DNA from: an uncultured Gammaproteobacteria bacterium
GTDB taxonomy: Bacteria > Patescibacteriota > Microgenomatia > UBA8517
Reading direction: 5' to 3'
Length of the DNA stretch: 44,242 nt
NCBI GenBank assembly: GCA_964617045.1
Contig: CAZTVZ010000001.1
Location: forward strand, 90,521 to 134,762
Position numbers and translations under genes: made by a program. The notes under the pieces are model-generated. The model made no database searches and was not told the origin of the DNA. It saw only the letters and a list, made by a program, of their open reading frames with translations. Of this stretch, positions 7,928 through 21,424 are shown piece by piece (positions within the stretch are counted from its first letter, which is position 1; every line of letters begins with the position of its first letter).

Positions 7928-7973
7928 TAAACACTCTGGCCTCATTTTTTCCACTTCATAATTCTCAACGATC

Positions 7974-7982
7974 TGATATACT
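7974..7982 (+). promoter_or_regulatory. Extended -10 promoter of cassette A
   Basis: TGATATACT followed by a leader of about 37 nt and AAGGAGG 4 nt before ATG 8026. Confidence 0.6.
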
Positions 7983-7999
7983 ATGGGTGTTCTTTTAAA

Positions 8000-8602
8000 A
8001 TCGGAAACTATTAAAAGGAGGAAAAATGAACCCAAAAAAGGCTTTTGTGTTTTTATCTTTCCTGGTCTTGGTTACCCTGGTACTTACCGCTTGCCAACCG
8101 CAGGTTGTATATGTTCCCAGTGAGCCTCAGGTTGTGTATATTACCCAACCGGCTCCGCCACAGACCGAATCACAGCCACAAGTTGTGGTTGTTCAAGCTC
8201 CACCGGCTCAACAGCAACAGCAGCAACAACAATCAGTTGTGGTTGAAGTTGCACCCAATCCGATAGTTGTTGTCGAACCGACGCCTGAACCAAGAATTAT
8301 TATTGCACCAGATCCTTGGGAAGCATGTCCGGGAGCGAGGCTTTCTAGACTATATCCAGGAATGACTGCATATGTAGCATACGATCCACCATTGGATCAA
8401 AGAGTTCGAAAAGGAGCGGGTACAAAATACGAAATTGTTGGCATGATGGATCCTGGCACACAATTTTCGATTCTTGATGGACCAAAATGTGCAAACGGTT
8501 GGGTGTGGTGGAAAATCGAAACCACAGACTGGACTCTGTCAGGATGGACAGTCGAAGGAGACGAATCAGACTATTGGCTTGTTCCAATATATTAGTTCCG
8601 AT
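8000..8602 (+). repeat. Cassette A closing inverted repeat (arms 8000-8010 and 8593-8602)
   Basis: ATCGGAAACTA pairs with TAGTTCCGAT (10 bp plus one bulged A); the right arm starts with the stop codon. Confidence 0.6.
8026..8595 (+). CDS. Lipoprotein with Pro/Gln/Val repeat linker and C-terminal SH3-like domain
   Basis: Signal peptide with lipobox LTAC; QPQVV repeats and Q8; RVRKGAGTKYEIVG...GP.C..GWVWWKI bacterial SH3-type signature. Confidence 0.8.
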   Translation: MNPKKAFVFLSFLVLVTLVLTACQPQVVYVPSEPQVVYITQPAPPQTESQPQVVVVQAPPAQQQQQQQQSVVVEVAPNPIVVVEPTPEPRIIIAPDPWEACPGARLSRLYPGMTAYVAYDPPLDQRVRKGAGTKYEIVGMMDPGTQFSILDGPKCANGWVWWKIETTDWTLSGWTVEGDESDYWLVPIY

Positions 8603-8613
8603 GTAACCAAAGA

Positions 8614-8649
8614 GGGGTAAATTCTCATAAGAAGTTTACCCCTTTTTTT
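8614..8649 (+). terminator. Intrinsic terminator of cassette A
   Basis: GGGGTAAATTCT-CATA-AGAAGTTTACCCC followed by a T tract. Confidence 0.85.
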
Positions 8650-8666
8650 ATTATGGGTTAACTATG

Positions 8667-8675
8667 TGCTATAAT
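8667..8675 (+). promoter_or_regulatory. Extended -10 promoter of cassette B
   Basis: TGCTATAAT directly after terminator A; SD AAAGGAGG at 8732-8739. Confidence 0.7.
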
Positions 8676-8744
8676 CGGGCGTCGTCTGGAAAGCCCAAAC
8701 GATAATGCACCTTAAAATTCATTCAATTCTAAAAGGAGGCTGGG

Positions 8745-8969
8745 ATGGAAGATAGATTGCTAAGAACAGACTCATCCATTGATGTCCTTCAAAAAGCAAT
8801 TGCGGATGGACACGTTAAAACACTCAGAGATGCAATCAATTTTGCATTTCATCGAGGCCTTGATTTCGGAGAAGGCGTTCACACAACAGATGTGTTGATG
8901 ACTCTTTCCTCTCAAGGGAAATTGTTTATTGATCCCGAAAGCGGGAACATAACAAAAATACAAGAGTAA
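8745..8969 (+). CDS. Small soluble hypothetical protein, 74 aa (possibly winged-helix-like)
   Basis: Strong SD. Predicted helices followed by a GKLFIDPESGNI beta-hairpin-like end; the fold is inference only. Confidence 0.75.
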   Translation: MEDRLLRTDSSIDVLQKAIADGHVKTLRDAINFAFHRGLDFGEGVHTTDVLMTLSSQGKLFIDPESGNITKIQE

Positions 8970-8981
8970 TAAGGAGGAGAT

Positions 8982-9143
8982 ATGTTCGAAGAAATCAATA
9001 ATATTATTGCCTCAATTGGTTCATCTCTTGCAATCCTCCTCTGTGTTGTTGCATGGCCGACAATTCTTTGGATCTTGTTCAAAGGGATTTACCATTCTGT
9101 TTTTAAAGAAAAAGACAGAACAAAAAAAGAGGGGGAAATATGA
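8982..9143 (+). CDS. Small single-pass membrane protein, 53 aa (missed by the ORF track)
   Basis: AAGGAGG SD; MFEEINNIIASIGSSLAILLCVVAWPTILWILFKGIYHSVFKEKDRTKKEGEI*; ATGA overlap with the next gene. Confidence 0.75.
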   Translation: MFEEINNIIASIGSSLAILLCVVAWPTILWILFKGIYHSVFKEKDRTKKEGEI

Positions 9144-9487
9144 ACCCATACACAAATATATTTTCAAACGTATGCGTAATTATTGCATCCGTGTATATTC
9201 TGTATGCGTTTCTCACAAGAAGAATGGGAGAAGAATTCGAAGAAAGCTTTCGACCTATTCTGGTAATTGCTTTTCAGCTGATCAGCATCGGCTACACGGG
9301 ATTTATCGTCTTGGCGATAATTGCCCGGGATATTACTACCGCACTTTCATATCTGCTAATCCTATCCATACTTATCATCCTCACAATATTGAACATTAGG
9401 TTGGTTGAACCAAAATCACTCTTGTTCGACGAACTATTGTTTTTAAGTATGAGAAAATTTTTGTCCAGTGATGATATGGATGAGTAG
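9140..9487 (+). CDS. Membrane protein, 115 aa, about 3 TM segments
   Basis: Three hydrophobic stretches; translationally coupled by the ATGA overlap. Confidence 0.75.
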   Translation: MNPYTNIFSNVCVIIASVYILYAFLTRRMGEEFEESFRPILVIAFQLISIGYTGFIVLAIIARDITTALSYLLILSILIILTILNIRLVEPKSLLFDELLFLSMRKFLSSDDMDE

Positions 9488-9505
9488 AATTGAATGTTCA
9501 TTAGT

Positions 9506-9555
9506 AGGCACGGGTTGGATTATTCCAACAGAACAATTGTTCACCGTGCCTTTTT
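9506..9555 (+). terminator. Branched intrinsic terminator of cassette B
   Basis: AGGCACGG/CCGTGCCT stem plus T tract, enclosing GTTGGA-TTAT-TCCAAC and GAAC-AATT-GTTC hairpins. Confidence 0.75.
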
Positions 9556-9573
9556 CTATGTTATAAATTAATT

Positions 9574-10077
9574 ATGGATAGGGTAGTGGTTGTAAACGAT
9601 AAAATGCAAAAGGATTATTCCTATCATCTTTCAGAAAAGATGGGGGATGGTTTTGATCCCGATTTTAAACCTGAATTAACCCCAAAAGAAATGCTAAAGA
9701 TGGGAGTATTCGGTGGAAAATACATGACAGATTGTGCAAGGGAATTTCCTAAAGATTGGTATACCGAAGCAAAATTAAATTCCGAAAAGCATGATCCTCA
9801 GTTGAATTATTTTGGTGTTAATGCTTCTCAACCCCTTTCCGTATGGAAGAAAAAGGGATGGATAAATAAACAGGATCCGAGGGGTTGGTTTCAATGGTAT
9901 TGTCGATATTTTATGGGCAGAAGAAGTCTTGATGACGAAAGACAAATCAAAAGATGGAAAGCCATCAAAAGACATATCGGTCAAATCAAAAAGAATTGTA
10001 AACCGAAAGACCTAAACTGCAGAAAAGTCCAAAGACAAGCCCTTCTTCATTGGGCTATTGATTCCAGGAAGATTTAA
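9574..10077 (+). CDS. Conserved hypothetical protein (TPxEML..GVFGGKY / DPRGWFQWYCRY..GRR family)
   Basis: Highly patterned Trp/Tyr/Arg motifs that I recall from an uncharacterised family; function unknown. Confidence 0.8.
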   Translation: MDRVVVVNDKMQKDYSYHLSEKMGDGFDPDFKPELTPKEMLKMGVFGGKYMTDCAREFPKDWYTEAKLNSEKHDPQLNYFGVNASQPLSVWKKKGWINKQDPRGWFQWYCRYFMGRRSLDDERQIKRWKAIKRHIGQIKKNCKPKDLNCRKVQRQALLHWAIDSRKI

Positions 10078-11024
10078 TGTCCTTTGCCGTGGAATGCTTG
10101 ATGAATATCCCTCAATTGCTTATTCGTAACGTGTGTATATATTTGAGTGGTTGCAATATTTTTATGGCCCAACATTTCCTGAACGCTTCTCAAGTCAGCT
10201 CCGGCCATTAATAGATCCGTTGCAAAAGAATGTCTCAATACGTGAGGTGTTACTTCCATGGGCAACTTAATTTTTCTTGCATAACCTTTGATCATTCTTT
10301 GAATGCTTCTTACAGTTAGCCTCATTTTTTCATCACCGGTTGAAGGATCTTTAGATCCTTTATGTCTTATAAATAAAGGCTTGTAGTGATCATTTCTGTT
10401 TTTGAGATAGTTGTCTATCCATTCCGCAGCTCTTCCGGAAAGGAATACCACTCTTGCCCTTCCTCCTTTTCCGACTATCCCAAACTCTTTTCTTTCCATA
10501 TCAATTTGATCCCTATTTAGTTTAGTAAGTTCGGAAACACGAAGCCCTGTTGAAAACAATACTTCGAGAATCGCCTTGTCTCTTTTTCCTTGTATTGTGG
10601 ATAATGTTGGAGCATTTAAGAGTCTGTCTACCATATCTCCGGTTAAAAATTTGACCGTTCTTTCGGGTATTTTCGGTAAATCAATTTTTTCGGGGGCCAT
10701 CACTTTAAGGTCATTTTTAATAAGCCATTTAAGAAAAGACCGTAATGCGATTACATGATAGCCTTGAGTTTTTCTCCCCAAAGTACCACCTTTTCCGTCA
10801 GTCAGTCCCGACAAATAGACCCTGTAAGACCTGACAACATCGGAATTGATGTCGTTTAGCCCTTGGTGAATATGTTCGTTTTCCAGATAATGAATAAATC
10901 TGTCCAAATAATGTTTGTAATTTCTTATTGTTAGGGGAGAGGAGCCTTTTTCGACTTGAAGATAACCCAAAAAATCAGTTACTTTTTTCGCAATTTCAGA
11001 CTGATTGGGCTGGGACTCAGTCAT
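10074..11024 (-). CDS. XerC/XerD-family tyrosine recombinase
   Basis: N-terminal SAM-like domain, LFSTGLRVSEL, HVLRHSFATDLL, LGHKNIATTQIYTH catalytic residues. Confidence 0.95.
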   Translation of the reverse strand: MTESQPNQSEIAKKVTDFLGYLQVEKGSSPLTIRNYKHYLDRFIHYLENEHIHQGLNDINSDVVRSYRVYLSGLTDGKGGTLGRKTQGYHVIALRSFLKWLIKNDLKVMAPEKIDLPKIPERTVKFLTGDMVDRLLNAPTLSTIQGKRDKAILEVLFSTGLRVSELTKLNRDQIDMERKEFGIVGKGGRARVVFLSGRAAEWIDNYLKNRNDHYKPLFIRHKGSKDPSTGDEKMRLTVRSIQRMIKGYARKIKLPMEVTPHVLRHSFATDLLMAGADLRSVQEMLGHKNIATTQIYTHVTNKQLRDIHQAFHGKGH

Positions 11025-11032
11025 GTTATTTC

Positions 11033-11061
11033 ATAATAATGTTTCACAGAGGATGTGTCAA
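11033..11061 (-). promoter_or_regulatory. sigma70 promoter of the xer gene (near-leaderless)
   Basis: TTGACA-17 nt-TATTAT-8 nt-ATG on the minus strand. Confidence 0.7.
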
Positions 11062-11084
11062 TAAGATTGTGCGACGTAGAAGAA

Positions 11085-11768
11085 TTATTTACCTACAAAT
11101 AATTTTTTATAAACAGGGTAGAGTGTCGGCTCCTTGTCCAAATCGACTTCGATTTCGTCATATTCTATTACCCTGGGCATAGGTTTAACTTTATAGTTGT
11201 ATCTATGTGGAACAAGCATAATTTCGACTTTGTCGTCAACTTCAAGAATTTTTTCTGTATCTTCCAAAGAATCTTCTATATGAAGTGCAATTCCAAGTCT
11301 TTTTATGGTATTCGCTTTGAACATTTTTCTTTCTTCACGAACATTCGTATTACAAAGATTTATTGTATTTTGATCGACAAAAGGAAAATGAATTTTAAAC
11401 CATTCCCTGGTCATTTCTGCGCTCCTAGCCTCACGGGAAGTAATTATCTGAGGCTTAACTCCATAATCGTAGAGTTTTCCAAGAAGAATTTCGGCTCCTT
11501 CAATGGGTGGAGATTTTAATAAAATTTCGGGCGTATACCATAATTTTATAAGCACTTCATAAGCTTCGGCTTCAGACAAACCTTCATCCATTGCCCAATG
11601 TTGGACACAATCCCAGTGATCCAAATCCGCAGGTTTTTTATTTGTTCCAAAAATTTTATTAAATTCTTCAACAACCGGAACACCTGAATAAGCAAGACAT
11701 CCATCAACATCGAAACTGATGTTGGAATATTTTAAAATTTCTCCTGTTCTAGGTCGTTCCAGTCTCAT
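11085..11768 (-). CDS. HAD-superfamily 5'(3')-deoxyribonucleotidase-like protein
   Basis: FDVDGCL motif I, ITSR motif II, HIEDS motif. Start placed at 11768 because TACAAT lies 7 nt upstream. Confidence 0.75.
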   Translation of the reverse strand: MRLERPRTGEILKYSNISFDVDGCLAYSGVPVVEEFNKIFGTNKKPADLDHWDCVQHWAMDEGLSEAEAYEVLIKLWYTPEILLKSPPIEGAEILLGKLYDYGVKPQIITSREARSAEMTREWFKIHFPFVDQNTINLCNTNVREERKMFKANTIKRLGIALHIEDSLEDTEKILEVDDKVEIMLVPHRYNYKVKPMPRVIEYDEIEVDLDKEPTLYPVYKKLFVGK

Positions 11769-12145
11769 TTCGGGCATTGTACACGAGGTAAATTAATAAT
11801 TCCATTGGAATATAAATTAGCCTCAAATATAACCTCACCAAATCGATTCTAAGGCCTGTCTAAATGAAAAGACGACTATCTATTCATCCCGTACTATTGG
11901 GCTTTTATGCAAATCGTTATTTTTATTATTAACACTATTTTGTAACTATTTTTCACAAACACTGGAAAACAGGGGAGGGGTACTAAACGATAAAATTCAT
12001 TTCGGGATAGTTTCGGTCGGAGAAAATAAATATCGAACATCAAAAACAGGGAAAATACATAGTAGTACAGTTACTTTTCGTTTTTTATGCCAGACATGTT
12101 CCTTAGCATACACTGACCTTATCCCTACCCTTACATTTTTAGAAT

Positions 12146-12173
12146 AGGTCGCAAAAGTTACATTGTGCGACTT
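12146..12173. other. Candidate dif-like Xer recombination site (11-6-11)
   Basis: AGGTCGCAAAA-GTTACA-TTGTGCGACTT; arms are 9/11 complementary. It lies in the long intergenic gap about 1.1 kb from xer, near the gene-strand switch. Confidence 0.5.
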
Positions 12174-12359
12174 ACCATATTCAAAGAGGCTGGGATGAAT
12201 AAATCATTAATTAATAAGTATTCAATACCATCGAGGGATAATCTAAAAAACATTGTGTAATAAATTTTAAAGGGTCTTCCCCGGTTGTTCCGTCTATCTA
12301 ACCGTTACACGCCTAGAAAGAGCGAAAGAGGCTCTTGTAGGCATATTAGCCTTGAAAAG

Positions 12360-12368
12360 TTATCCACA
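12360..12368 (+). promoter_or_regulatory. Consensus DnaA box
   Basis: TTATCCACA exact match; TTTTTCACA at 11949-11957 also fits TTWTNCACA. Confidence 0.45.
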
Positions 12369-12634
12369 GAGAGAAGGTTTAGAGGAATAATTACGTGTTT
12401 TCGTGCCTAGTAACTATATCATTGTGTATCACCATTTACCCCCAAGGGAAGTTTCGGGTTTTTTCCGCAATACGATTTGTCGCAAATTGTGAAAATTGTG
12501 AAGTATATTTGTGAAAATTAGCACTCCCCAGTCTTGATTAATAACCTATAATTATAGGGTGTGTACTACCCTCTCTCCCCTTGTCGGGGTATGTTTAAAT
12601 TTTTTTCTTATTTTGTGCGTAATCTGAAGCTAAT

Positions 12635-13405
12635 TTATAAACCCCATTTCGTGGCTATGAACATTCCAATAAAAACAAGCCCAACCATGAAAAGATATTC
12701 CCTCAGAGTTTGTGAGAATAATCTACCCTCCCACAGAGCCTGACCTAAACCTACCAACATGTAAATTGCCATAGTTAAAAACAACGAACCGACAACAACC
12801 GTAACCGGCCAAAAGAATAAAGACGCTGCAATCTCCCCCACTATCAAACTAGAAATCAAACTGTATGTAACTATTTCTTTTGAAAATTCGTTTTTTAAAT
12901 CTACCTGCCAAATTCCCTGAACCATTAATGGAAATGCTAATGCGGCAATAGACAGTGCAGTGATGGGGAGGAGAGTTCTTAAAGACAATATTGCATCAAA
13001 AACAAGGAACGAAGTGACAAGTGTGAGTACAAATCCAACACCGCGAGCGGCCCTCAACAGTGCAATTGTTCTTACAGCAGAAACGGTAAAAATATTCATT
13101 GTTAATGCAAGTATGTAGATGCCTATTCCGAAAAACAAAATTATCGGGATTCTGGTAAACACACTTGAAGGAAGAAGGAACCAAAAAATTCCCACACCCA
13201 ATGTAAACATAGTAGGTAAAATTAGTGTAAGAAGAGTCGCGTTTTTGCCGATTCCTTCGCGTAAACTAAACCAAAAAAGTCCCGTTGTCAGAAGTCCCAA
13301 TAATCCGATTGCAGGAAACTTAAATCTTTCATCTAACAGCTGTATACCGATAAATCCCAAGGAAAGGAGAATGGAAGTTAATACAAATTTACGTCTTTTG
13401 CTCAT
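12635..13405 (-). CDS. Multi-pass membrane protein of unknown function (possibly DUF5656-like)
   Basis: About 8-9 hydrophobic segments, directly downstream of yebC; the family label is from memory and uncertain. Confidence 0.75.
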   Translation of the reverse strand: MSKRRKFVLTSILLSLGFIGIQLLDERFKFPAIGLLGLLTTGLFWFSLREGIGKNATLLTLILPTMFTLGVGIFWFLLPSSVFTRIPIILFFGIGIYILALTMNIFTVSAVRTIALLRAARGVGFVLTLVTSFLVFDAILSLRTLLPITALSIAALAFPLMVQGIWQVDLKNEFSKEIVTYSLISSLIVGEIAASLFFWPVTVVVGSLFLTMAIYMLVGLGQALWEGRLFSQTLREYLFMVGLVFIGMFIATKWGL

Positions 13406-13420
13406 TGTTCGGGCAAGGGC

Positions 13421-14167
13421 TTATTTATTAAGTTGAGCCATTATTTCATCCGAAATTTCGCTGTTGTCCGAAACTTTCTGAACATCATCGTCGTCGTTAA
13501 GGCTGTCCAAGAAATTAAGCACCTTTTGGGCATCTCCCGTATTATCGATTTTTACGGTATTAACAGGTTTCATGTAAAGTTCCAAATCCGATATTTCAAA
13601 TCCTGCTTCTTCAACCTTTTTCCTGGTTTCCGAAAGTTTATCCGGAGCCGTATAAACCTCTATTGATCCGTCCATCTCTTCGACATCCTCGGCCCCCAAA
13701 TCAATTAGTTCCAACATTAAATCCTCGATGTTTCCTTCTTTTTTGGCAACAAAGTACCCCTTGCTGACAAAGTTGAAAGAAACCGATCCTGGTCCACCCA
13801 AGTTGCCCCCTACTCTTTCAAAAAGATTTTTAATAACCTGTCCGGTTCTGTTTTTATTATCAGTTGCAACCGTAACAAGGACCGCTATTCCGCAAGGACC
13901 GAATCCTTCGTAGGTTGCTTCTTCGATGTTTTCTGCTGAAGACTGAGCTCTGGCAAGTGCCCTGTCGATATTATCTTTAGGCATGTTAGAACCTCGGGCT
14001 TTTTCAATAACAACCCTTAATTTGAAGTTGGTATCAGGATCAGGACCGCCTCCGGTTTTAATCGCAATTGCGATTTCCTTGGCGATCTTACTGAATATCT
14101 TCCCTTTTTGGGCATCTTTCAGTTCCTTCTGTCTGTGTATTGTTGCGTAATGTGAATGACCTGACAT
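13421..14167 (-). CDS. yebC: YebC/PmpR family protein
   Basis: MSGHSHYATI, NMPKDNIDRA, YEGFGPCG, TDNKNRT, DDDDVQKV. Confidence 0.95.
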   Translation of the reverse strand: MSGHSHYATIHRQKELKDAQKGKIFSKIAKEIAIAIKTGGGPDPDTNFKLRVVIEKARGSNMPKDNIDRALARAQSSAENIEEATYEGFGPCGIAVLVTVATDNKNRTGQVIKNLFERVGGNLGGPGSVSFNFVSKGYFVAKKEGNIEDLMLELIDLGAEDVEEMDGSIEVYTAPDKLSETRKKVEEAGFEISDLELYMKPVNTVKIDNTGDAQKVLNFLDSLNDDDDVQKVSDNSEISDEIMAQLNK

Positions 14168-14229
14168 ATAAAAAGCCCTTTCGGACTTGGGATATTATAC
14201 CTCATAGGCCACTCCCCTTTCAAACCACG

Positions 14230-14281
14230 AAAAACCCGAGGCTTGTAGATGGCATAAGCCAAATACTTACCTCGGGTAAGT
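14230..14281 (-). terminator. Terminator-like 3' element of cassette C with an alternative fold
   Basis: ACCCGAGG/CCTCGGGT plus TTTT; competing ACTTACC-CGA-GGTAAGT hairpin. Confidence 0.6.
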
Positions 14282-14293
14282 CATACTGCGAAT

Positions 14294-14449
14294 TTAATAC
14301 GATCCAAGTATTGCAAGGATAATAATTAGTATTACAAGCAAAAAAGCACAAAGAGCTGAAATTGATGCTTCAAAGATATGCCTTAATGTTTGCACGACCC
14401 TTCCTATTTTTCTTTTTTCTTCCCTCAAGTCGGCCATGGCAACCACCAT
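14294..14449 (-). CDS. Small membrane protein, 51 aa
   Basis: TAATG coupling to the upstream ORF; MVVAMADLREEKRK...SALCAFLLVILIIILAILGSY* with a C-terminal TM segment. Confidence 0.6.
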   Translation of the reverse strand: MVVAMADLREEKRKIGRVVQTLRHIFEASISALCAFLLVILIIILAILGSY

Positions 14450-14583
14450 TATGGTATCGCCGGACCGCCAACAAGCGGAATAATTACAAATAGGATTACG
14501 ATCGCAATAACAATGAACCAAAATGTTTCTTTTGCGCTTGGTGTTGTGTTAGGATCTCGAACATACTTAATCTGTTTGGACAT
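14449..14583 (-). CDS. Small single-pass membrane protein, 44 aa (missed by the ORF track)
   Basis: GGAGG SD inside the end of the upstream ORF; MSKQIKYVRDPNTTPSAKETFWFIVIAIVILFVIIPLVGGPAIP*. Confidence 0.7.
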   Translation of the reverse strand: MSKQIKYVRDPNTTPSAKETFWFIVIAIVILFVIIPLVGGPAIP

Positions 14584-14584
14584 T

Positions 14585-14785: not shown

Positions 14786-14830
14786 TTTTCCTCCTTTCTT
14801 CGCAGTATGTTAAAGAGCAAATTTCGCTAC

Positions 14831-14874
14831 AAAAAAAGCTCCTCTTTGGTAAGGCTAACCTTGCCACTGGAGCT
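14831..14874 (-). terminator. Leader terminator/attenuator of cassette C
   Basis: AGCTCC...TGGCAAGG-TTAG-CCTTACCA...GGAGCT followed by a T tract, between the promoter and the first ORF. Confidence 0.65.
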
Positions 14875-14893
14875 CCTCTTGAGCAGTGTGGGT

Positions 14894-14922
14894 ATTATAT
14901 CACATTATGGGTCATTTGTCAA
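14894..14922 (-). promoter_or_regulatory. Consensus sigma70 promoter of cassette C
   Basis: TTGACA-17 nt-TATAAT with extended TG. Confidence 0.85.
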
Positions 14923-14946
14923 GTACTTGGGTTTTAAATTAGGCAT

Positions 14947-14983
14947 AAAAAGGGGGTAATTTCCTTGTTAGGATTTTACCCCC
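14947..14983 (-). terminator. Intrinsic terminator of cassette D
   Basis: GGGGGTAAAATCCT-AACA-AGGAAATTACCCCC plus TTTTT. Confidence 0.85.
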
Positions 14984-14987
14984 ACTT

Positions 14988-16119
14988 CACTTCATCAGAT
15001 CGGATATTGCCTTACTACCAAATGGTTCAATGCCTCAATACGCACCTGCATGTCTTTGATCAGGTTTGCGTCCTCGAATTCGCATGCATATTCGAATTGT
15101 TTTGGACTATGTGCATTGATCATCATTCCTGAAATGATTTGGTTCATCATTCCCAAATCACACCAAAAAGCCTCAGTACAAGCAATTTCTACCCATTCGC
15201 GGTACTCATCGGCAAGGGTGATTGCCCTATCAAGAAGATTCTTGTAAATACCAGGGTCGTCATGCAACTTAGGCTCATACTCCTTAATATAAAACATTAT
15301 CTGTTCGAAATTGCCAATCAAATTTACTGCTGTACTGATAGCCTCAGGCTGATATCTATTTGATTGTTCGAATACAAGCTGACAATCTTCAGGCATAACT
15401 TCCTCTTCCTTGAGAAGTTGAGCACATGCTTTTTCCTTCGCATCTACCGCTTTCTTGGATATTTCTTGCGCTTCAACTTCAATCACTTGATTAAGTTCGT
15501 CGACTCCCGAGGCAAGTTCACATGCTTTTAAGTATGCATTTTCGGCTATTGCCAGATACTCGGCATTGGTTTGGAATTCAACGTTATTTGATGCGACTTC
15601 GTAAACTCCAAAATAGTCAGAAAATGTTTTGGCCATACAATGGCTCTTTCGTAAAAGGTGCAGCTGTGTTTTCTTCTCCTCAATGTATTCAAATATGGGA
15701 ATCGCCATATCCGTTCTGCCGGCATCCAAAATTGCACTTCGAATAATCTCCCATTTCCATTCCGAACTTATGTCCGGATCTGATTGAATCAGACGCAACG
15801 CCGTTTTAATTTCATCGGTGTAATGAGAGTATATATATATCTTATTGAGCAGATCCTTTTTTTCCTTGGCTCTCTCATGCTGATCTTTGACCTGGTCATA
15901 CATCCTCAATTCCCATAATTCCAAAAAGTTGTTAAAGGATGCTCCGGAATACGAATATAATTCGGCCTTTACCTTTTTCTCAATCTTTTTCCCTCTTGAT
16001 ACACATACCTTGGCATATTCCATCCATGCTCTACGGGTTCCAATACGGCCGGCAAGATACCGCAATAAAAATAACGGTGCTTTCATTTTTCCCTCCTTTG
16101 GGTTAAATCTGATGAAATG
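14988..16119 (-). repeat. Cassette D closing inverted repeat (arms 16119-16107 and 15000-14988)
   Basis: CATTTCATCAGAT / ATCTGATGAAGTG, 13 bp with one U-G wobble in the sense RNA; the right arm contains the TGA stop. Confidence 0.8.
14995..16086 (-). CDS. Hypothetical alpha-helical (repeat-like) protein, 363 aa
   Basis: Start moved to MKAPLF because AAAGGAGG precedes ATG 16086; no recognisable catalytic motif. Confidence 0.8.
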   Translation of the reverse strand: MKAPLFLLRYLAGRIGTRRAWMEYAKVCVSRGKKIEKKVKAELYSYSGASFNNFLELWELRMYDQVKDQHERAKEKKDLLNKIYIYSHYTDEIKTALRLIQSDPDISSEWKWEIIRSAILDAGRTDMAIPIFEYIEEKKTQLHLLRKSHCMAKTFSDYFGVYEVASNNVEFQTNAEYLAIAENAYLKACELASGVDELNQVIEVEAQEISKKAVDAKEKACAQLLKEEEVMPEDCQLVFEQSNRYQPEAISTAVNLIGNFEQIMFYIKEYEPKLHDDPGIYKNLLDRAITLADEYREWVEIACTEAFWCDLGMMNQIISGMMINAHSPKQFEYACEFEDANLIKDMQVRIEALNHLVVRQYPI

Positions 16120-16179
16120 TAAAAGTACAGTGCTTACAGTAAGCACAAATTAACTTTGAGCATAATTTCAAAGTGCCTG

Positions 16180-16208
16180 ATTCTAGCCTATTATAGGCTT
16201 AATGTCAA
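16180..16208 (-). promoter_or_regulatory. sigma70 promoter of cassette D with a palindrome in the spacer
   Basis: TTGACA-17 nt-TAGAAT; AGCCTAT-N-ATAGGCT dyad at 16185-16199. Confidence 0.8.
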
Positions 16209-16271
16209 AAATGTCTCATCTAGTTCTTGACTTCTTTCCCCACTTTTCTATACTCTTTTTTAGTCTTAATC

Positions 16272-16976
16272 ATGGATACGTCTGCCCAACTGGCAATAAA
16301 ACAAGCTCTCCAAGGAAACTGGGTTGAAGCAATTAAAATAAACGAAGGAATTTTAAAAGATAATCCTGAAGATATTGATGCTCTCAATAGGCTTGGCCGT
16401 GCACACAGTGAACTTGGATGCATTAAAAAGGCAAAAGATGCAGCACAAAAGGTTCTTAAAATATCTCCCGACAACTCAATCGCCCTTAAGGCTTTAATCA
16501 AACTCGAAAATATGGATGAGGGAGAATGCCCATGTGGGAAGATATCCTCACCGGACGATTTTTTGGAAGAACCAGGGAAAACAAAAATGATGTATGTCAT
16601 GCATCAGGGAGACCCCAAAGTAATTGCCACTCTTGATGCTGGAGACGAAGTTAGGCTTGACTCCCACAGCCACAGATTGGAGATATTAACCGAAGACGGA
16701 AAATATGTAGGAAGGTTGCCTGATGATTTGTCGGCGAGAATTAAAATGCTTATCTCATGTGGTAACGAATACAAAGTGGTCATTAAGTCTCTCGATCAAG
16801 CTGGCGTAAAAATACTGCTTAGAGAAACAAAAAATAAGAGTGGCACACCCAGCTTCCCGGCAGAAAAAATTGAATATGTGAGTTTTACTCCTCCCGAGTT
16901 GGTACACAAAAACGATATGGAGATTTCCGCTTCGGAAGAAGAGTCACATTCTTTGGACGGAGCAGGAGTATCTTAA
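16272..16976 (+). CDS. TPR-containing protein with a C-terminal HIRAN-like beta domain
   Basis: AIKQALQGNWVEAI / DIDALNRLGRAH TPR pattern; GKYVGRLPDDLS HIRAN-like segment. TTGACT-16-TATACT promoter upstream supports start 16272. Confidence 0.7.
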   Translation: MDTSAQLAIKQALQGNWVEAIKINEGILKDNPEDIDALNRLGRAHSELGCIKKAKDAAQKVLKISPDNSIALKALIKLENMDEGECPCGKISSPDDFLEEPGKTKMMYVMHQGDPKVIATLDAGDEVRLDSHSHRLEILTEDGKYVGRLPDDLSARIKMLISCGNEYKVVIKSLDQAGVKILLRETKNKSGTPSFPAEKIEYVSFTPPELVHKNDMEISASEEESHSLDGAGVS

Positions 16977-17905
16977 TATCTCTTTCCAAACTTCTCACCC
17001 AATTCGACAACCAAATCAAAATTACCTTCGGGCTTTTCATATTTCTTACCACAAGAGTAGATCAAAGATACTTCGTTTACCATTTTTTTGTTCTCCCCTT
17101 TTACCAGGCAGTCAAATTCAATTTTCTCACCCTTATCGACAGAGGCGGCTTTAATACCCAATACCTCAAGGGTAGATCCGACTTCTTGGGCAACATATAA
17201 TTTCCCCGTGTTGTCTTTGATTAGAGCTTTATATCCCATTCTTCCGTATTCCTGACTGCCGAATACCACAAGCAAGTTGTTGGGTATTTTGGATGTGGGA
17301 ACATATCCCATTTCCCCATCAACAAGTTTTTCTTTTCTCAAATATGTTGTATTTTCCAAACTCATATCTATTCTTTTTCCTCCGGACACACCCATTGAAT
17401 AGATCATCAGGTTAATTTTGTCTCCAAAACCCATATTGGATCCTCCGAACGAGAACAAAGATCCCAGCATTGGAAGAAGTTTGCCTTCAGCAAGAGCAAG
17501 ATGTTTATCGTTCGCCCAAGCCGAAACAGGAAAGTGAAAATTACGCACAATGGACTCCTGCATTAACGTTCCTCCCATTTTCTCATTCTCTCCCAATTTC
17601 CAAAGACTTTTTGATTTCCATGAACCCAACTGTCTCGATACGGTAAGTTGAGTGTTTGCAGGAATCGTAATATTTGTAATCTCACCCGCTTCAGGATCAA
17701 AGGTGGATACAATAATTTCTCCTTCTTTGCCCTGAATCGCAATACTAACTTTATTTTTCCCTCCAAAATGACAATCCGTACAAAAGACATATGCAATGAT
17801 TCCAAGGATTACAAACAAGGGAATAAGAATTGGCCAAACGTTAAACGAAGACTTTTTCTTTCTATACACTCTCATTCTGTGGTTTTGGGCAGTTTTTCTC
17901 TTCAT
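16973..17905 (-). CDS. Membrane-anchored LytR/CpsA/Psr (LCP)-like protein
   Basis: Basic N-terminus plus TM segment, ITNITIPANTQL LCP-like strand, C-terminal LytR_C-like DLVVELG. Confidence 0.55.
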   Translation of the reverse strand: MKRKTAQNHRMRVYRKKKSSFNVWPILIPLFVILGIIAYVFCTDCHFGGKNKVSIAIQGKEGEIIVSTFDPEAGEITNITIPANTQLTVSRQLGSWKSKSLWKLGENEKMGGTLMQESIVRNFHFPVSAWANDKHLALAEGKLLPMLGSLFSFGGSNMGFGDKINLMIYSMGVSGGKRIDMSLENTTYLRKEKLVDGEMGYVPTSKIPNNLLVVFGSQEYGRMGYKALIKDNTGKLYVAQEVGSTLEVLGIKAASVDKGEKIEFDCLVKGENKKMVNEVSLIYSCGKKYEKPEGNFDLVVELGEKFGKRY

Positions 17906-17963
17906 TAAACCGTACTTCTTAGTCTAATAAGAAAAGGTCATGCGTGTAAAGGGGATTGTGAAA

Positions 17964-18674
17964 TTACTCTACTTGATTCAGATTATTAACAACCTTTTGA
18001 AGGTCTTCCGGCAAGTCTTGGGAGTAGGTTACCCTTTCTCCGCTGCCGGGATGATTAAACGAGATGTCTTTGGCGTGCAAAAATAATCTTGGGCACCATT
18101 TCCTGTCGTTTCTGGCTGTTTTTCTCCCGGCATAAAAATCGTCAGCAACAATAGGATTACCCAAATGCTTCATATGTATTCTTATTTGATGTGTTCTCCC
18201 CGTCTTGGGTTTACATTCGACAAGAGAATACGATCCTTCTTGGTTGGAATAGTGTGCTTTTACTTCGTAAAGAGTAAGAGCATCCCTTCCCCCGGGCAAT
18301 ACGCCAAAACGATCCCTCCTCCAAGGAAGCCTTCCGACTGGAGCGTTTACCTCTCCCTTTTCGCTGGCTAATTTTCCGTGGACCAGACAAACATACGTTT
18401 TTTCTACTTCCCTCTCCTTAAATTCGCGTTGGAGAGCCCAAAACACCCCTTCGGTCTTGGCAACAAGAAGCAGTCCTGATGTTTCTTTGTCCAGTCTGTG
18501 CACAATGCCATTTCGAAGCTCACGATTATTGTTAAGGGGGTAATCAAGAGTTGTTCTTGCCCATTTCTGCAGTACGGGTTGGGTTGTAGTGGTATCAGCC
18601 TCATTCGTAATCCAGCCGGCTGGTTTTGATACAACAAAATACTCCGTATTTTCGTATATTACTTTAGGTTCCAT
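17964..18674 (-). CDS. RluA-family pseudouridine synthase
   Basis: VSKPAG, VHRLDKETSG catalytic Asp, KTGRTHQIRIH, LFLHA. Confidence 0.95.
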   Translation of the reverse strand: MEPKVIYENTEYFVVSKPAGWITNEADTTTTQPVLQKWARTTLDYPLNNNRELRNGIVHRLDKETSGLLLVAKTEGVFWALQREFKEREVEKTYVCLVHGKLASEKGEVNAPVGRLPWRRDRFGVLPGGRDALTLYEVKAHYSNQEGSYSLVECKPKTGRTHQIRIHMKHLGNPIVADDFYAGRKTARNDRKWCPRLFLHAKDISFNHPGSGERVTYSQDLPEDLQKVVNNLNQVE

Positions 18675-18695
18675 GAGAGTATTTTAACACGAAGA

Positions 18696-19082
18696 TTAAC
18701 TCTCTCTTTTTTTCTGGCATGAAGTGCACAGTGTGGCTTCCGGATATATGGAAAGTCTGTCGGTATCGATCATCTTTCCACAGTCTTCACAAAGTCCATA
18801 CTTTCCCTTTTCAAGTCTTTTCAAAGCTTTTTTGGTTTGATCGATTTTCTTGTTTAATTCTTTTTTAATTGCCGCAGTTCGCGCATGACCGAATTGTTCA
18901 TCTGCTTCCGTATCAGGAGCTGCATTATCGGAAACCCTCAAATCATTCTTGAAAGGATCTTCCTTTTCTATTGTTTTCTTTCTTAAGGTCAATTTTTGTA
19001 AGTTTTCCTTTAAAAAGACTCCAATAGGACTAAGCAGGTTTGTCGGAAACATTACTTTTTTATTTTCTTCTTTCTTGCTCAT
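18696..19082 (-). CDS. TraR/DksA C4-type zinc-finger protein
   Basis: Coiled coil plus YGLCEDCG...RL...P.ATLCTSC. Confidence 0.88.
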   Translation of the reverse strand: MSKKEENKKVMFPTNLLSPIGVFLKENLQKLTLRKKTIEKEDPFKNDLRVSDNAAPDTEADEQFGHARTAAIKKELNKKIDQTKKALKRLEKGKYGLCEDCGKMIDTDRLSIYPEATLCTSCQKKRES

Positions 19083-19681
19083 GTTCTTTGCCTTGCTAAG
19101 TTAAATACTAACAGAAAAAATGTAAATGCAAAAATACCCGAAACAATCACTTCGTATTTACCAGAGAAGGATATCACGAAAGGAAAAAAGGAAGCAATGA
19201 TTGCTCTTGCCAGGAAAAACAATCCAGATATGGTAAGCCCGGTAAAACCGATTCTTCCGGAACGATACCAAGAAAACTTTTTATAGTGTCTGTCAAAAAA
19301 ATATGCCAAACCCATGAGAATAACAATAAAAATAAAATAACCGAAGGAAAATAAACTTCTTGCCCCAACGGAGTCAATTAAAAAAGTAAAAGAAAGCATC
19401 GGCAGAATACTGACAACAAATGCTTCGTAAGTTTCATAGAATCTAAGCTTATTTTTGATTATCCCCAGAGACAATCCAACGGTAAGCCCGACAACTCCTC
19501 CGTACATCCACCATGGCTGCAGATATTTGGTAAAAATAAAAAGGAAAATAGCCAAACCCAATAGCGAAAATAAACCGGTGGAAAATATTTGATTTGCAGG
19601 ATAATCTTCTCTTAATTTTTTCCAGAAAAGAAACAGGTACAGAAATATCCCCAGAATATTAAAAAGTATTGAGATAAACAT
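19079..19681 (-). CDS. Multi-pass membrane protein (weakly Lgt-like)
   Basis: About 6-7 TM segments; start at 19681 from TGATATACT 8 nt upstream. The canonical Lgt HPTQLYE motif is not seen. Confidence 0.65.
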   Translation of the reverse strand: MFISILFNILGIFLYLFLFWKKLREDYPANQIFSTGLFSLLGLAIFLFIFTKYLQPWWMYGGVVGLTVGLSLGIIKNKLRFYETYEAFVVSILPMLSFTFLIDSVGARSLFSFGYFIFIVILMGLAYFFDRHYKKFSWYRSGRIGFTGLTISGLFFLARAIIASFFPFVISFSGKYEVIVSGIFAFTFFLLVFNLARQRT

Positions 19682-19736
19682 CCGACACCAGTATATCATT
19701 TGACTTAGTGTGAAAAATAGCTTTAAGATTTAAACA

Positions 19737-20198
19737 ATGTTGGAAACTCCACATGTTCTGGTCGGCGCGGCAATAGCCACAAAAATTCCCAATCCCTTTA
19801 TTGCAATTCCGCTTGCTCTTCTGTCTCATTTTGCCTTGGAAAAAATTCCCCACTGGAATCCTCACCTTAATACCGAAACAAAAAAGTACGGAAAGTTAAC
19901 ATCACAAACAATGAGAATAATTGTTGCCGATACTACGATTGCCCTAATATCCGGAAGTATTATTTCCACGCTGGTACTGCCCGATCGTGCACATGCTTTA
20001 ACAATTTTACTTGCCTGTTTTGCATCCGCTCTTCCGGACATCGTTGAAGCACCATACTTTCTTTTCAAGGTGCGGGCAAAAATACTGGAAGATTACATCA
20101 AGTTGCAGAAAAAACTTCAGGTGGATGCACCGATTATCCCAGGACTTATTACTCAGCTTTTTGTCATCGCAGGTGCTATTTGGTGGATACTTACTTAG
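19737..20198 (+). CDS. Membrane-bound putative metal-dependent hydrolase (YdjM-like)
   Basis: PHVLVG, SHFALEKIPH, LPD motifs with TM helices. Confidence 0.6.
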   Translation: MLETPHVLVGAAIATKIPNPFIAIPLALLSHFALEKIPHWNPHLNTETKKYGKLTSQTMRIIVADTTIALISGSIISTLVLPDRAHALTILLACFASALPDIVEAPYFLFKVRAKILEDYIKLQKKLQVDAPIIPGLITQLFVIAGAIWWILT

Positions 20199-20751
20199 CT
20201 CTCTCAATATAAGAAGAATCTCTTGTATCAACGATTATCTTTTCCCCCGCCTTGATAAACAAAGGAACTTTTACGTTCATTCCGTTTTCCAACACTGCAG
20301 GTTTATATAAATTGGTAGCAGAATTTCCTTTTACTCCCGGATCGCACTCTTTTACGGTTAAGGCTACTTTGGGAGGAAGTTCAACCGAAAGTGCTTTGTC
20401 GTCCCAAAACAAGATATTGGCGTTTTCCCCTTCTTTCAAAAAAAGGATTGAATCGCCGAGAACGCTTATTGGTATTTCGACTTGTTCAAAGGATTTGGGA
20501 TCCATAAAAAAGGCGTTTGTATCGTCTTTGTACAAATATTGAAGAATCTTTCGATAGGTATTGGCTTCATCAACGGCAACATTGGAACTGAAAGATTTCT
20601 CTTCCACCGAACCGGTTTCCAAATTTCTAACCTGGACTTTTACAACAGCACCTCCCCTACCCATTTTGATAAGAGAATATTTGATAACCTGATAGGGCTT
20701 TCCATATTGCTGAAAAGCGACCCCGTTTTTTAAATCTGTGGAATTAATCAT
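20191..20751 (-). CDS. efp: Elongation factor P
   Basis: KMGRGGA loop, PGVKGNSAT..KPA.LENG..V.VPLFI..GE.I.VDTR. Confidence 0.96.
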   Translation of the reverse strand: MINSTDLKNGVAFQQYGKPYQVIKYSLIKMGRGGAVVKVQVRNLETGSVEEKSFSSNVAVDEANTYRKILQYLYKDDTNAFFMDPKSFEQVEIPISVLGDSILFLKEGENANILFWDDKALSVELPPKVALTVKECDPGVKGNSATNLYKPAVLENGMNVKVPLFIKAGEKIIVDTRDSSYIERAK

Positions 20752-20796
20752 ACAGAGGGTATTTTAACCTAATTTTTGGTATAATTGAAGCCTTAA

Positions 20797-20881
20797 GCCG
20801 AGGTGGCGGAATGGCAGACGCTCAGGTCTCAAAAACCTGTGAGGCTAACACCTCGTGGAGGTTCGACTCCTCTCCTCGGCA
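20797..20881 (+). tRNA. tRNA-Leu(CAA), CCA not encoded
   Basis: Acceptor GCCGAGG/CCTCGGC, D-loop GG, anticodon arm CAGGT-CTCAAAA-ACCTG, long variable arm, GTTCGAC T-loop; TGGTATAAT upstream. Confidence 0.97.
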
Positions 20882-20882
20882 C

Positions 20883-20921
20883 AAAAAAAGCCCTTCCAGA
20901 CTGTTAAGTCAAAGAAGGGCT
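20883..20921 (-). terminator. Intrinsic terminator of cassette E (abuts the tRNA 3' end)
   Basis: AGCCCTTC...GAAGGGCT plus T tract on the minus strand; inner GACT-TAAC-AGTC hairpin. Confidence 0.8.
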
Positions 20922-20929
20922 ACTTACCT

Positions 20930-21352
20930 TCATTTCCACATTTTTTAACGATCGAGTGATTGTTCCGGCCAATCTTCGTAACTTCTACAAGTCAAGGTTA
21001 TTGTCACGGCGGGATATTCCTTCGAAAGAAGGTTGGCAAATCTTTCTGCCCTTTGCAAAGAGCCGTAATACCAGAATATCCATGAGTTTTTCTGGCAAAA
21101 TTCCAGATCTCCCAAATAATAACGCTCCTTAATATTCAACAATTTTTGGATTTTATTCTGGGGCAAAAACTCGTTTGTCGTAAATATCGAAAGCTTACCA
21201 ATGATCGGATCGGGGTACATTTGAGGTACACCTATACTTCCGAATTCATAACCGATGCTTCTTACGAAGTCGATTAATTTCAATAAGTCTACATCCTTTG
21301 CTTGCTCAACTCTGACGCCCATATTTTCCTCCTTATGATTGCGTGGAAATGA
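20930..21352 (-). repeat. Cassette E closing inverted repeat (arms 21352-21342 and 20940-20930)
   Basis: TCATTTCCACG / TGTGGAAATGA, 11 bp with one G-U wobble in the sense RNA; the right arm starts 4 nt after the stop. Confidence 0.75.
20945..21322 (-). CDS. Hypothetical alpha/beta protein, 125 aa
   Basis: Start moved to MGVRVE because TAAGGAGG precedes ATG 21322. Confidence 0.75.
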   Translation of the reverse strand: MGVRVEQAKDVDLLKLIDFVRSIGYEFGSIGVPQMYPDPIIGKLSIFTTNEFLPQNKIQKLLNIKERYYLGDLEFCQKNSWIFWYYGSLQRAERFANLLSKEYPAVTITLTCRSYEDWPEQSLDR

Positions 21353-21395
21353 TATTTGAATGTGCCGATTAACGCATTTGTTAATCCAATGTGGC

Positions 21396-21424
21396 ATTCT
21401 ATAGTGTTATAGGCTATCTGTCAA
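21396..21424 (-). promoter_or_regulatory. sigma70 promoter of cassette E
   Basis: TTGACA-17 nt-TAGAAT, overlapping the dnaB stop region. Confidence 0.8.

What the first reader, a model, noticed from the sequence alone, without database searches (positions are those of the whole stretch)
7974..21424. Closed-loop expression cassettes: five unrelated accessory units share SD-to-stop base pairing
Seen: five units (A 8026 lipoprotein; B three ORFs 8745-9487; C three ORFs 14785-14294; D 16086-14995; E 21322-20945) follow the same plan. It is promoter, leader, left arm ending 2-9 nt before AGGAGG, ORF(s), right arm overlapping or within 4 nt of the last stop, then an intrinsic terminator. Arm pairs: ATCGGAAACTA/TAGTTCCGAT, CATTCAATTCTA/TAGAATTGAATG, CATACTGCGAA/TTCGCAGTATG, CATTTCATCAGAT/ATCTGATGAAGTG, TCATTTCCACG/TGTGGAAATGA. 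Arm sequences differ between units while position and pairing are kept. The two non-Watson-Crick pairs (D, E) are G-U only in the sense RNA. In polycistronic B and C the stem spans the whole operon. Inference: selection acts on an mRNA helix that places the final stop codon beside the first SD without covering it. Possible roles are closed-loop ribosome re-initiation in a cell whose core genes look leaderless, a processing or circularisation stem (RNase III or RNA ligase), or 5'-3' end protection like the long-distance pairing known from type I toxin mRNAs. I do not know this as a described general architecture.
Basis: partly seen in the sequence, partly recalled or inferred. Interest (0 to 1): 0.93.

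Follow-up and report, generated by a model that had tools for sequence, protein, structure and literature searches.

The report
mRNA ends paired around accessory genes
In this small uncultured bacterium, four (probably five) unrelated accessory gene units have a short stretch just before the ribosome-binding site that matches a stretch just after the last stop codon. This resembles the 5'/3'-UTR pairing shown to control stability of the Bacillus subtilis hbs mRNA, but here it recurs across several genes.

Summary
Units B, C, D and E carry 12, 11, 13 and 11 bp of complementarity; D and E each include one G-U. The left arm lies 2-9 nt upstream of AGGAGG and the right arm overlaps the final stop or starts within 4 nt after it. 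An intrinsic terminator follows 4-10 nt later. Unit A is weaker (7 bp, a bulge, then 3 bp). A sixth AGGAGG-led unit, F (32049-31618), has no pairing.

Controls support it. Non-cognate leader/stop pairs reach at most 8 bp and 36 core genes reach 3-8 bp. I estimate the chance of four of six units reaching 11 bp at about 1e-10. Whole-transcript folds contain the helix in all five units, and sister-species orthologues of C, D and E keep it. No compensatory substitutions were found in the arms, so selection on pairing is inferred, not shown.

[quoted passage not shown] So this is a recurrent variant of a known kind, in a Microgenomates-like (CPR) chromosome whose core genes lack SD sequences.

Closed-loop re-initiation is unlikely, because a terminating ribosome must melt the 3' arm. 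The function is untested.

The parts
7955..7982 (+). Unit A promoter-like site (TTCATA-16-TATACT, with TG before the -10)
8000..8010 (+). Unit A left arm ATCGGAAACTA, 5 nt upstream of AGGAGG (8016-8021)
   Evidence: pairs in the whole-transcript MFE as 7 bp + bulged A + 3 bp
8026..8595 (+). Unit A CDS, 189 aa, signal/lipoprotein-like N-terminus and SH3_3 domain
   Evidence: only its own cluster among 5.8e9 proteins
8593..8602 (+). Unit A right arm TAGTTCCGAT (includes stop TAG)
8609..8652 (+). Unit A intrinsic terminator
   Evidence: fold; T-run 8643-8649
8667..8675 (+). Unit B extended -10 (TGcTATAAT)
   Evidence: read by eye; not called by the scan
8682..8702 (+). Unit B 5'-proximal leader hairpin
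8720..8731 (+). Unit B left arm CATTCAATTCTA, 2 nt upstream of AGGAGG (8734-8739)
   Evidence: 12/12 pairs in MFE, probabilities 0.85-0.99
8745..9487 (+). Unit B three ORFs (8745-8969, 74 aa; 8982-9143, 53 aa; 9140-9487, 115 aa; last two overlap as ATGA)
   Evidence: no Pfam/PHROG/PADLOC hits
9485..9496 (+). Unit B right arm TAGAATTGAATG (includes stop TAG of the third ORF)
9506..9557 (+). Unit B intrinsic terminator
14894..14922 (-). Unit C promoter (TTGACA-17-TATAAT, 12/12)
14825..14885 (-). Unit C leader hairpin followed by a U-run (terminator/attenuator-like)
   Evidence: compensatory G-C to A-T change in sister species
14799..14809 (-). Unit C left arm CATACTGCGAA, 3 nt upstream of AGGAGG (14795-14790)
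   Evidence: 11/11 in MFE; identical in L001
14294..14785 (-). Unit C three small membrane-like ORFs (14785-14585, 66 aa; 14583-14449, 44 aa; 14449-14294, 51 aa)
   Evidence: (gene calls in relatives)
14282..14292 (-). Unit C right arm TTCGCAGTATG, 1 nt after stop TAA
14229..14277 (-). Unit C intrinsic terminator
16180..16208 (-). Unit D promoter (TTGACA-17-TAGAAT, 11/12)
16130..16174 (-). Unit D two leader hairpins (16174-16153 and 16146-16130)
   Evidence: sister-species changes fall in the loops
16107..16119 (-). Unit D left arm CATTTCATCAGAT, 9 nt upstream of AGGAGG (16097-16092)
   Evidence: 13/13 in MFE; 12/13 kept in L001
14995..16086 (-). Unit D CDS, 363 aa, no known family; only two homologues found
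14988..15000 (-). Unit D right arm ATCTGATGAAGTG (spans stop TGA 14997-14995)
14946..14989 (-). Unit D intrinsic terminator
   Evidence: compensatory T-A to C-G change in L001
21396..21424 (-). Unit E promoter (TTGACA-17-TAGAAT, 11/12)
21367..21386 (-). Unit E leader hairpin GATTAAC/GTTAATC
   Evidence: compensatory A-T to G-C change in L088
21342..21352 (-). Unit E left arm TCATTTCCACG, 8 nt upstream of AGGAGG (21333-21328)
   Evidence: 11/11 in MFE
20945..21322 (-). Unit E CDS, 125 aa, no known family
20930..20940 (-). Unit E right arm TGTGGAAATGA, 4 nt after stop TAA
   Evidence: in L088 two changes leave 9 of 11 pairs
20883..20921 (-). Unit E intrinsic terminator, abutting tRNA-Leu (20797-20882, + strand)
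31563..32095 (-). Unit F: same plan (extended -10, 5' hairpin, AGGAGG 32059-32054, CDS 32049-31618, terminator) but without 5'-3' pairing; a negative case within the set

Best explanation
Each unit is transcribed from its own sigma-70-type promoter to an intrinsic terminator. In the mRNA, two UTR segments pair over 10-13 bp (predicted duplex -14 to -23 kcal/mol). One lies between the 5' hairpin(s) and the very strong SD (AAAGGAGG). The other lies between the last stop codon and the terminator hairpin. These are the only stretches left single-stranded when each UTR is folded alone.

The result is an hbs-type 5'/3'-UTR long-range interaction that closes the whole mono- or polycistronic message. 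The most likely role is to hide the A/U-rich leader segment next to the SD, the usual entry site for an endoribonuclease such as RNase Y or E, and the short 3'UTR. That would stabilise the transcript while it is not being translated and tie its decay to translation.

Because the 3' arm overlaps or abuts the stop codon, every terminating ribosome must open the helix. So the helix reports whether the message is in use.

Shown here: the complementarity, its positions, its statistical excess, its predicted formation in full-length folds, and its retention in sister-species orthologues.

Inferred: that the helix forms in vivo, that it was selected for pairing, and which nuclease or step it affects.
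For: - Arms verified and specific to cognate pairs.
- Controls: 36 core genes give 3-8 bp. Random windows give P(>=11 bp) of about 0.002. Sliding-window energy percentiles are 0.0002-0.017.
- The helix is in the MFE of full-length transcripts with pair probabilities near 1 in all five units.
- Both arms are unpaired when leader or 3'UTR is folded alone. Leaders B-E begin with hairpins.
- Orthologues in sister species (76-81% protein identity) keep 11/11, 12/13 and 9/11 pairs.
- The arms changed at 3/70 positions, against 35/364 in other UTR sequence and 322/1961 in CDS.
- Local hairpins in the same UTRs do show compensatory changes, so these UTRs evolve as structured RNA.
- The experimentally tested hbs mRNA has the same layout. 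It has hp1/hp2 and a 14-nt segment just downstream of hp2 that overlaps the RNase Y site before an exceptionally strong SD. The complement lies just upstream of the terminator, dG is -19 kcal/mol, and compensatory mutants were made (PMC5737220).
- Long-range intramolecular pairing over hundreds of nt has been shown to act in vivo in B. subtilis (PMC12697547).
Against: - No compensatory double substitution was seen in any arm. The lower substitution rate in arms versus other UTR sequence is not significant (p=0.17).
- Part of unit C is identical between the two lineages and may be a recent recombination tract.
- One of the two changes in the E right arm of L088 breaks a pair.
- Units F and G (the latter only in relatives) have the same plan without a convincing helix.
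- Unit A has no 5' hairpin and only a bulged 7+3 bp helix.
- The nuclease repertoire of this organism is unknown. No RNase Y, J, E or III gene lies in the window.
- Thermodynamic folding ignores ribosomes and co-transcriptional kinetics.
- No such units were found in the few more distant relatives available.
Confidence: 0.5

Rival explanations
1. Translational gate or feedback, including the reader's closed-loop idea. The helix ends 2-9 nt from the SD, at the 5' edge of the 30S footprint. It would lower initiation or remove a standby site. Ribosomes reaching the stop melt it and so promote further initiation, or hand over to the nearby SD.
For: - Left arms lie at -14 to -33 relative to the start codon.
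- Right arms begin -3 to +7 nt from the first base of the stop.
- The units are the only SD-led genes in an otherwise SD-poor genome.
- Long-range pairing near the RBS is known to change decay and translation (PMC12697547).
Against: - The SD and start codon are not covered by the helix.
- At termination the ribosome occupies the 3' arm, so stop and SD are not held together at that moment (inference from ribosome footprints).
- In hbs the same layout acts on decay, with the 3' arm far from the stop.
- The short 3'UTRs explain the proximity to the stop without any termination-linked role.
Confidence: 0.2
2. Processing stem. The helix is a substrate for a double-strand-specific nuclease (RNase III or Mini-III) or a ligase. 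It would yield trimmed or circular mRNAs, as with rRNA processing stems or the icaR 5'/3' duplex.
For: - The helix brackets the whole coding part, as rRNA processing stems do.
- The D helix can be extended to about 22 bp with G-U pairs.
- The icaR 5'/3' duplex is cut by RNase III (PMC7821165).
Against: - The core helices are 10-13 bp, well under two helical turns.
- The D extension competes with the terminator stem and loses a pair in L001.
- Cleavage would remove both protective end hairpins.
- No bulge-helix-bulge or other known processing motif is present, and there are no Rfam hits.
Confidence: 0.08
3. DNA-level feature. Either the inverted repeats flank an invertible coding segment (an on/off switch), or they are the remains of palindromes into whose loops the SD-plus-ORF segments were inserted.
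For: - The inverted repeats exactly bracket SD plus ORF(s) between a fixed promoter and terminator.
- A tyrosine recombinase gene lies nearby (10074-11024).
- Accessory content varies between strains (unit G).
- One of the four non-Watson-Crick positions would be G-U on the antisense strand only.
Against: - The repeats are 10-13 bp and differ in every unit, so there is no shared recombinase core.
- All 12 related contigs from independent samples show the same orientation.
- The recombinase looks like the housekeeping XerC/D.
- The arms always fall inside the transcript. Three of four non-Watson-Crick positions are G-U in the sense RNA.
Confidence: 0.07
4. Chance complementarity picked out by eye.
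For: - Runs of 10-12 nt complementary to the leaders occur elsewhere within 3 kb.
- Unit A alone is not significant by longest stem.
Against: With mechanically defined windows, four of six units reach at least 11 bp, where the per-unit chance is about 0.002. Thirty-six core genes and all non-cognate pairs stay at 8 bp or below.
Confidence: 0.01

Closest known systems
B. subtilis hbs mRNA 5'/3'-UTR long-range interaction (Braun, Durand & Condon 2017, PMC5737220)
   Same: - Structured 5'UTR with 5'-proximal hairpins.
- A complementary segment lies between the last hairpin and an unusually strong SD.
- Its partner lies just upstream of the intrinsic terminator.
- Similar helix length and energy: 14 bp at -19 kcal/mol, against 10-13 bp at -14 to -23 kcal/mol here.
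   Different: - hbs is a single housekeeping gene with an ~80-nt 3'UTR, so its 3' arm is far from the stop. Here the 3'UTRs are 11-24 nt and the arm overlaps or abuts the stop codon.
- Two helices here span three-gene operons.
- The layout recurs in five unrelated ORFan units of one genome.
- No experimental evidence exists here, and no RNase Y site is known.
S. aureus icaR mRNA 3'UTR anti-SD pairing (Ruiz de los Mozos et al. 2013, as summarised in PMC7821165)
   Same: Intramolecular 5'UTR-3'UTR base pairing in a bacterial mRNA.
   Different: In icaR the 3'UTR UCCCC motif pairs with the SD itself, blocks initiation and creates an RNase III site. Here the SD is left free, 2-9 nt from the helix, and the arms have no anti-SD sequence.
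Type I toxin mRNAs with 5'-3' long-distance interaction (hok fbi/tac, aapA1; PMC5416894, PMC6733600 listed)
   Same: - A helix between the two ends locks the full-length message.
- Units B and C encode small hydrophobic peptides.
   Different: - No antisense RNA gene is evident.
- Units A, D and E encode 125-363 aa proteins.
- The helix does not sequester the SD.
- No 3'-processing signal is known.
Eukaryotic closed-loop mRNA (cap-eIF4E-eIF4G-PABP-poly(A))
   Same: The two ends of the message are brought together.
   Different: The eukaryotic loop is protein-bridged and lies outside the translated region. Here there is a direct RNA helix that the terminating ribosome must unwind.

Membership tests
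hbs-type 5'/3'-UTR long-range interaction | Fully or nearly fully complementary segments of more than 10 nt in the 5'UTR and 3'UTR of the same mRNA | tested here: met
   B 12, C 11, D 13 (1 G-U), E 11 (1 G-U). A is 7+3 with a bulge.
hbs-type 5'/3'-UTR long-range interaction | 5' segment lies between 5'-proximal hairpin(s) and the SD | tested here: met
   Leader folds show this for B, C, D and E. A has a 25-nt leader without a hairpin.
hbs-type 5'/3'-UTR long-range interaction | 3' segment lies just upstream of the intrinsic terminator | tested here: met
   4-10 nt from the terminator stem in all five units.
hbs-type 5'/3'-UTR long-range interaction | Very strong SD whose bound ribosomes shield the message | tested here: inconclusive
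   AAAGGAGG-type SD in all units. The organism's 16S 3' end is not in the window and ribosome shielding cannot be tested.
hbs-type 5'/3'-UTR long-range interaction | Pairing masks an endonuclease (RNase Y) site and changes mRNA half-life; rescued by compensatory mutations | not testable with these tools
   Needs experiments. No nuclease genes lie in the window.
icaR-type anti-SD 3'UTR pairing | 3'UTR segment pairs with the SD itself | tested here: not met
   The helix ends 2-9 nt upstream of AGGAGG. The arms lack a CCUCC-like sequence.
Type I toxin-antitoxin mRNA | Small hydrophobic toxin ORF plus an overlapping antisense RNA gene | tested here: inconclusive
   B and C encode 44-66 aa membrane-like peptides. 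A, D and E do not. No strong antisense promoter or terminator is seen. No PADLOC hit.
RNase III processing stem | Helix of about two turns (20 bp or more) flanking the processed RNA | tested here: not met
   Core helices are 10-13 bp. Only D can be extended, through G-U pairs that compete with its terminator.
Invertible DNA segment (inverton) | Both orientations present in populations; inverted repeats share a recombinase core | tested here: not met
   Same orientation in 12 related contigs. The arm sequences are unrelated between units. Read-level data were not available.

The most novel reading that the evidence does not exclude
This CPR lineage may translate most genes without an SD and use a dedicated mRNA design for its SD-led, fast-evolving accessory genes. 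The message would be closed by a 5'UTR-3'UTR helix whose 3' arm sits on the stop codon. Each termination event would then reopen the leader, coupling termination to the next initiation or to decay. That would be a systematic, RNA-only bacterial counterpart of end-to-end mRNA communication.
Probability: 0.15. Interest if true: 0.85.

Novelty: new variant of a known kind. Interest (0 to 1): 0.6.

Why it matters
Only a handful of single-gene cases of 5'UTR-3'UTR pairing are known in bacteria: hbs, icaR and RNAIII/hld. The 2021 review states that it is open whether the mechanism applies to other genes (PMC7821165).

Here the same plan recurs in four to five unrelated units within 14 kb, including two operon-spanning helices. 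The organism is from the uncultured Candidate Phyla Radiation, and its core genes lack SD sequences.

If confirmed, it would show that end-to-end mRNA pairing can be a general design rule for a class of genes. It would also give compact, sequence-defined elements that can be tested by disrupting and compensatory mutations in a heterologous host.

Tried and rejected
1. Covariation. Homologues of A, D and E were sought among 5.8e9 proteins. Only the same species and one sister lineage exist. Their contigs (L001, L088) show no compensatory change in the arms.
2. Wider relatives. A YebC-centred scan of GTDB genomes gave a nearest relative at 57% identity (Ca. Woesebacteria). Its SD-led genes show no convincing leader-to-stop helix.
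3. Promoter-pattern scan of metagenomes (TTGACA-N5-CCTATAA-N5-TAGAAT). It gave 56 loci from unrelated organisms. Their SD-led, terminator-ended units (L104, L128, L148) have no helix. These serve only as extra negative controls.
4. Extending the window by about 8 kb and 9 kb (L093, L094) found no further AGGAGG-led units.
5. Rfam, at gathering and at E<=1, found nothing in the leaders.
6. Pfam, PHROGs and PADLOC on the cargo proteins found only SH3_3 in A. So there is no evidence that the units are phage, defence or toxin modules.
7. Inversion. No contig has the opposite orientation.
8. The G-U strand-asymmetry argument rests on 3 of 4 positions and is not significant.
9. Unit F was examined for an alternative 5'-end/3'UTR helix. 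None appears in the MFE or the ensemble.

Full report
**What the window is.** The window is a piece of bacterial chromosome carrying gyrA, xerC/D, yebC, rluA-like, dksA-like, efp, tRNA-Leu, dnaB and hisS. It also carries a DUF5656 protein. The closest YebC in GTDB genomes is from Candidatus Woesebacteria (57%) and then Levyibacteriota. This points to a Microgenomates-group CPR organism with 39% G+C. Of 36 core genes, only 4 have any SD-like 4-mer before the start. Sixteen have a TAnnnT box 5-10 nt before the ATG.

**SD-led units.** The sixth, F, lies at 32049-31618 on the minus strand. About 17 kb of extra flanking sequence from the same species adds no further unit.

**The observation.**
- B is a perfect 12-mer and C a perfect 11-mer.
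- D is 13 bp with one U-G and E is 11 bp with one G-U.
- A is 7 bp, a bulged A, then 3 bp.
- Left arms end 2-9 nt before AGGAGG.
- Right arms overlap the last stop (A, B, D) or start 1 nt (C) or 4 nt (E) after it.
- Each right arm is followed 4-10 nt later by a hairpin and a T-run.
- C, D and E have the three best sigma-70 matches in the region.

**Statistics.** I used mechanically defined windows: 30 nt before the SD, and -12 to +25 around the last stop.
- Cognate stems are 7, 12, 11, 13, 11 and 5 bp for A-F. Non-cognate combinations reach at most 8.
- Thirty-six core genes give 3-8 bp with uniform energy percentiles.
- Real leaders against random windows give P(>=11 bp) of about 0.002. Four of six units at that level is about 2e-10.
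- Energy percentiles against sliding windows are 0.017, 0.0011, 0.0049, <0.0002, 0.012 and 0.89 for A-F.

**Is it an RNA feature?**
- Full-length transcripts, folded from the predicted start site to the terminator (509-1229 nt), contain the long-range helix in the minimum-free-energy structure of all five units. Pair probabilities are mostly above 0.95.
- When leader and 3'UTR are folded alone, both arms are unpaired. Leaders B-E begin with one or two hairpins.
- Independent assemblies of the same species carry the same arms.
- A sister lineage (D 76% and E 81% protein identity) was recovered on L001 and L088.
  - C arms are identical there.
  - The D left arm loses its last pair.
  - The E right arm has two changes. 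One is A to G opposite U, which is still a pair in the sense RNA. The other is G to A opposite C, a mismatch.
- The helix is still predicted in the sister lineage: 11/11, 12/13 and 9/11 pairs.
- The arms changed at 3/70 positions. Other UTR sequence changed at 35/364 (p=0.17) and CDS at 322/1961 (p=0.004).
- No compensatory double change occurs in an arm. Such changes do occur in local hairpins of the same UTRs: the E leader hairpin, the D terminator and the C leader hairpin.

So selection on pairing is plausible but not demonstrated. Divergence is too low, and part of unit C may be a recent recombination tract.

**What it resembles.** The B. subtilis hbs mRNA has two 5' hairpins. A 14-nt segment just downstream of the second hairpin overlaps an RNase Y site in front of an exceptionally strong SD. 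Its fully complementary partner lies just upstream of the terminator (-19 kcal/mol). Disrupting either arm speeds cleavage or decay, and a compensatory mutant was tested (PMC5737220). Units B-E have the same layout and similar energies (-14 to -23 kcal/mol).

The 2021 review lists hbs, icaR and RNAIII/hld as the known cases and leaves generality open (PMC7821165). Work in B. subtilis shows that long-range pairing over hundreds of nucleotides acts in vivo (PMC12697547).

There are three differences here:
- The 3'UTRs are only 11-24 nt, so the 3' arm sits on or next to the stop.
- Two helices span three-gene operons.
- The plan recurs in unrelated ORFan units.

**Mechanism.** I favour an hbs-like role. 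The helix would hide the single-stranded leader segment next to the SD and the short 3'UTR. This would stabilise the untranslated transcript and link decay to translation.

From known ribosome footprints, a ribosome with the stop codon in its A site covers roughly the next 9-12 nt. It must therefore melt most or all of the 3' arm in A-D and part of it in E. This argues against the closed-loop hand-over idea, because the stop and the SD are not held together at termination. It is compatible with a translation-sensing helix.

A translational gate is the main rival. An RNase III or circularisation stem is unlikely for 10-13 bp. An invertible or insertion-derived DNA repeat is unlikely because the arms differ in every unit and all twelve related contigs share one orientation.

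**Limits.**
- The cargo proteins are ORFans, apart from an SH3_3 domain in A.
- No known RNA family matches the leaders.
- Unit F has the same plan without a convincing helix. So does a strain-variable unit G found between dksA and rluA in relatives.
- More distant relatives and unrelated genomes sharing the D/E promoter pattern showed no such helices, but the sample is small.
- Everything about in vivo pairing and function remains to be tested.

Noticed in passing
window 31563-32095 (minus strand): A sixth AGGAGG-led unit (F, 143 aa ORFan) with an extended -10, a 5' hairpin and a terminator, but no 5'-3' complementarity. It is a natural negative comparator for experiments.
   Followed up: yes
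window 14894-14922, 16180-16208, 21396-21424 (minus strand): The promoters of C, D and E share the layout TTGACA-N5-CC(T/C)ATAA-N5-TA(G/T)AAT, that is, a second -10-like box inside the spacer. The strict pattern occurs in 56 metagenome contigs, many in front of leaderless genes or tRNAs. It may be a common strong-promoter form or an operator site.
   Followed up: partly
window 14825-14885 (minus strand): The leader of unit C contains a long hairpin followed by a run of seven U, like an intrinsic terminator or attenuator upstream of the SD. It shows a compensatory change in the sister species and has no Rfam match.
   Followed up: partly
window 11778-12634: About 860 bp without a credible ORF between the NT5C-like gene and the DUF5656 gene. 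It contains one perfect DnaA box (12360-12368). No Rfam hit.
   Followed up: partly
window ~10000: GC skew changes sign near 10 kb, where gene orientation converges next to the xerC/D-like gene. DnaA-box counts in the window are not above chance.
   Followed up: partly
L001 778-2340; L003 1-620; window 18675-18695: Relatives carry an extra segment between dksA and rluA that is absent from the window. It holds a 79-aa gene with an SD and a terminator (unit G), preceded in L001 by a ~250-nt leader that I have not folded, plus a 308-aa apparently leaderless gene. The 5' regions of G differ strongly between L001 and L003.
   Followed up: partly
alignments of window vs L001/L088 (units C, D, E): The UTRs are more conserved than the coding sequences: about 10% against 16% nucleotide differences, and D protein is only 76% identical. 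Divergence is mosaic, since the last ~130 nt of unit C and its terminator are identical. This suggests fast-evolving cargo and/or recombination.
   Followed up: partly
window 16146 and 21397 (minus strand): Automatic gene calls in public assemblies start D at an upstream GTG (383 aa) and E at an ATG inside the -10 box (150 aa). The AGGAGG-preceded ATGs at 16086 and 21322 are the likely starts.
   Followed up: yes
window 14167-14223 (minus strand): yebC has an 11/12 promoter match (14223-14194). It is followed by a small hairpin and a T-run (14188-14173) ending only a few nt before its ATG.
   Followed up: no
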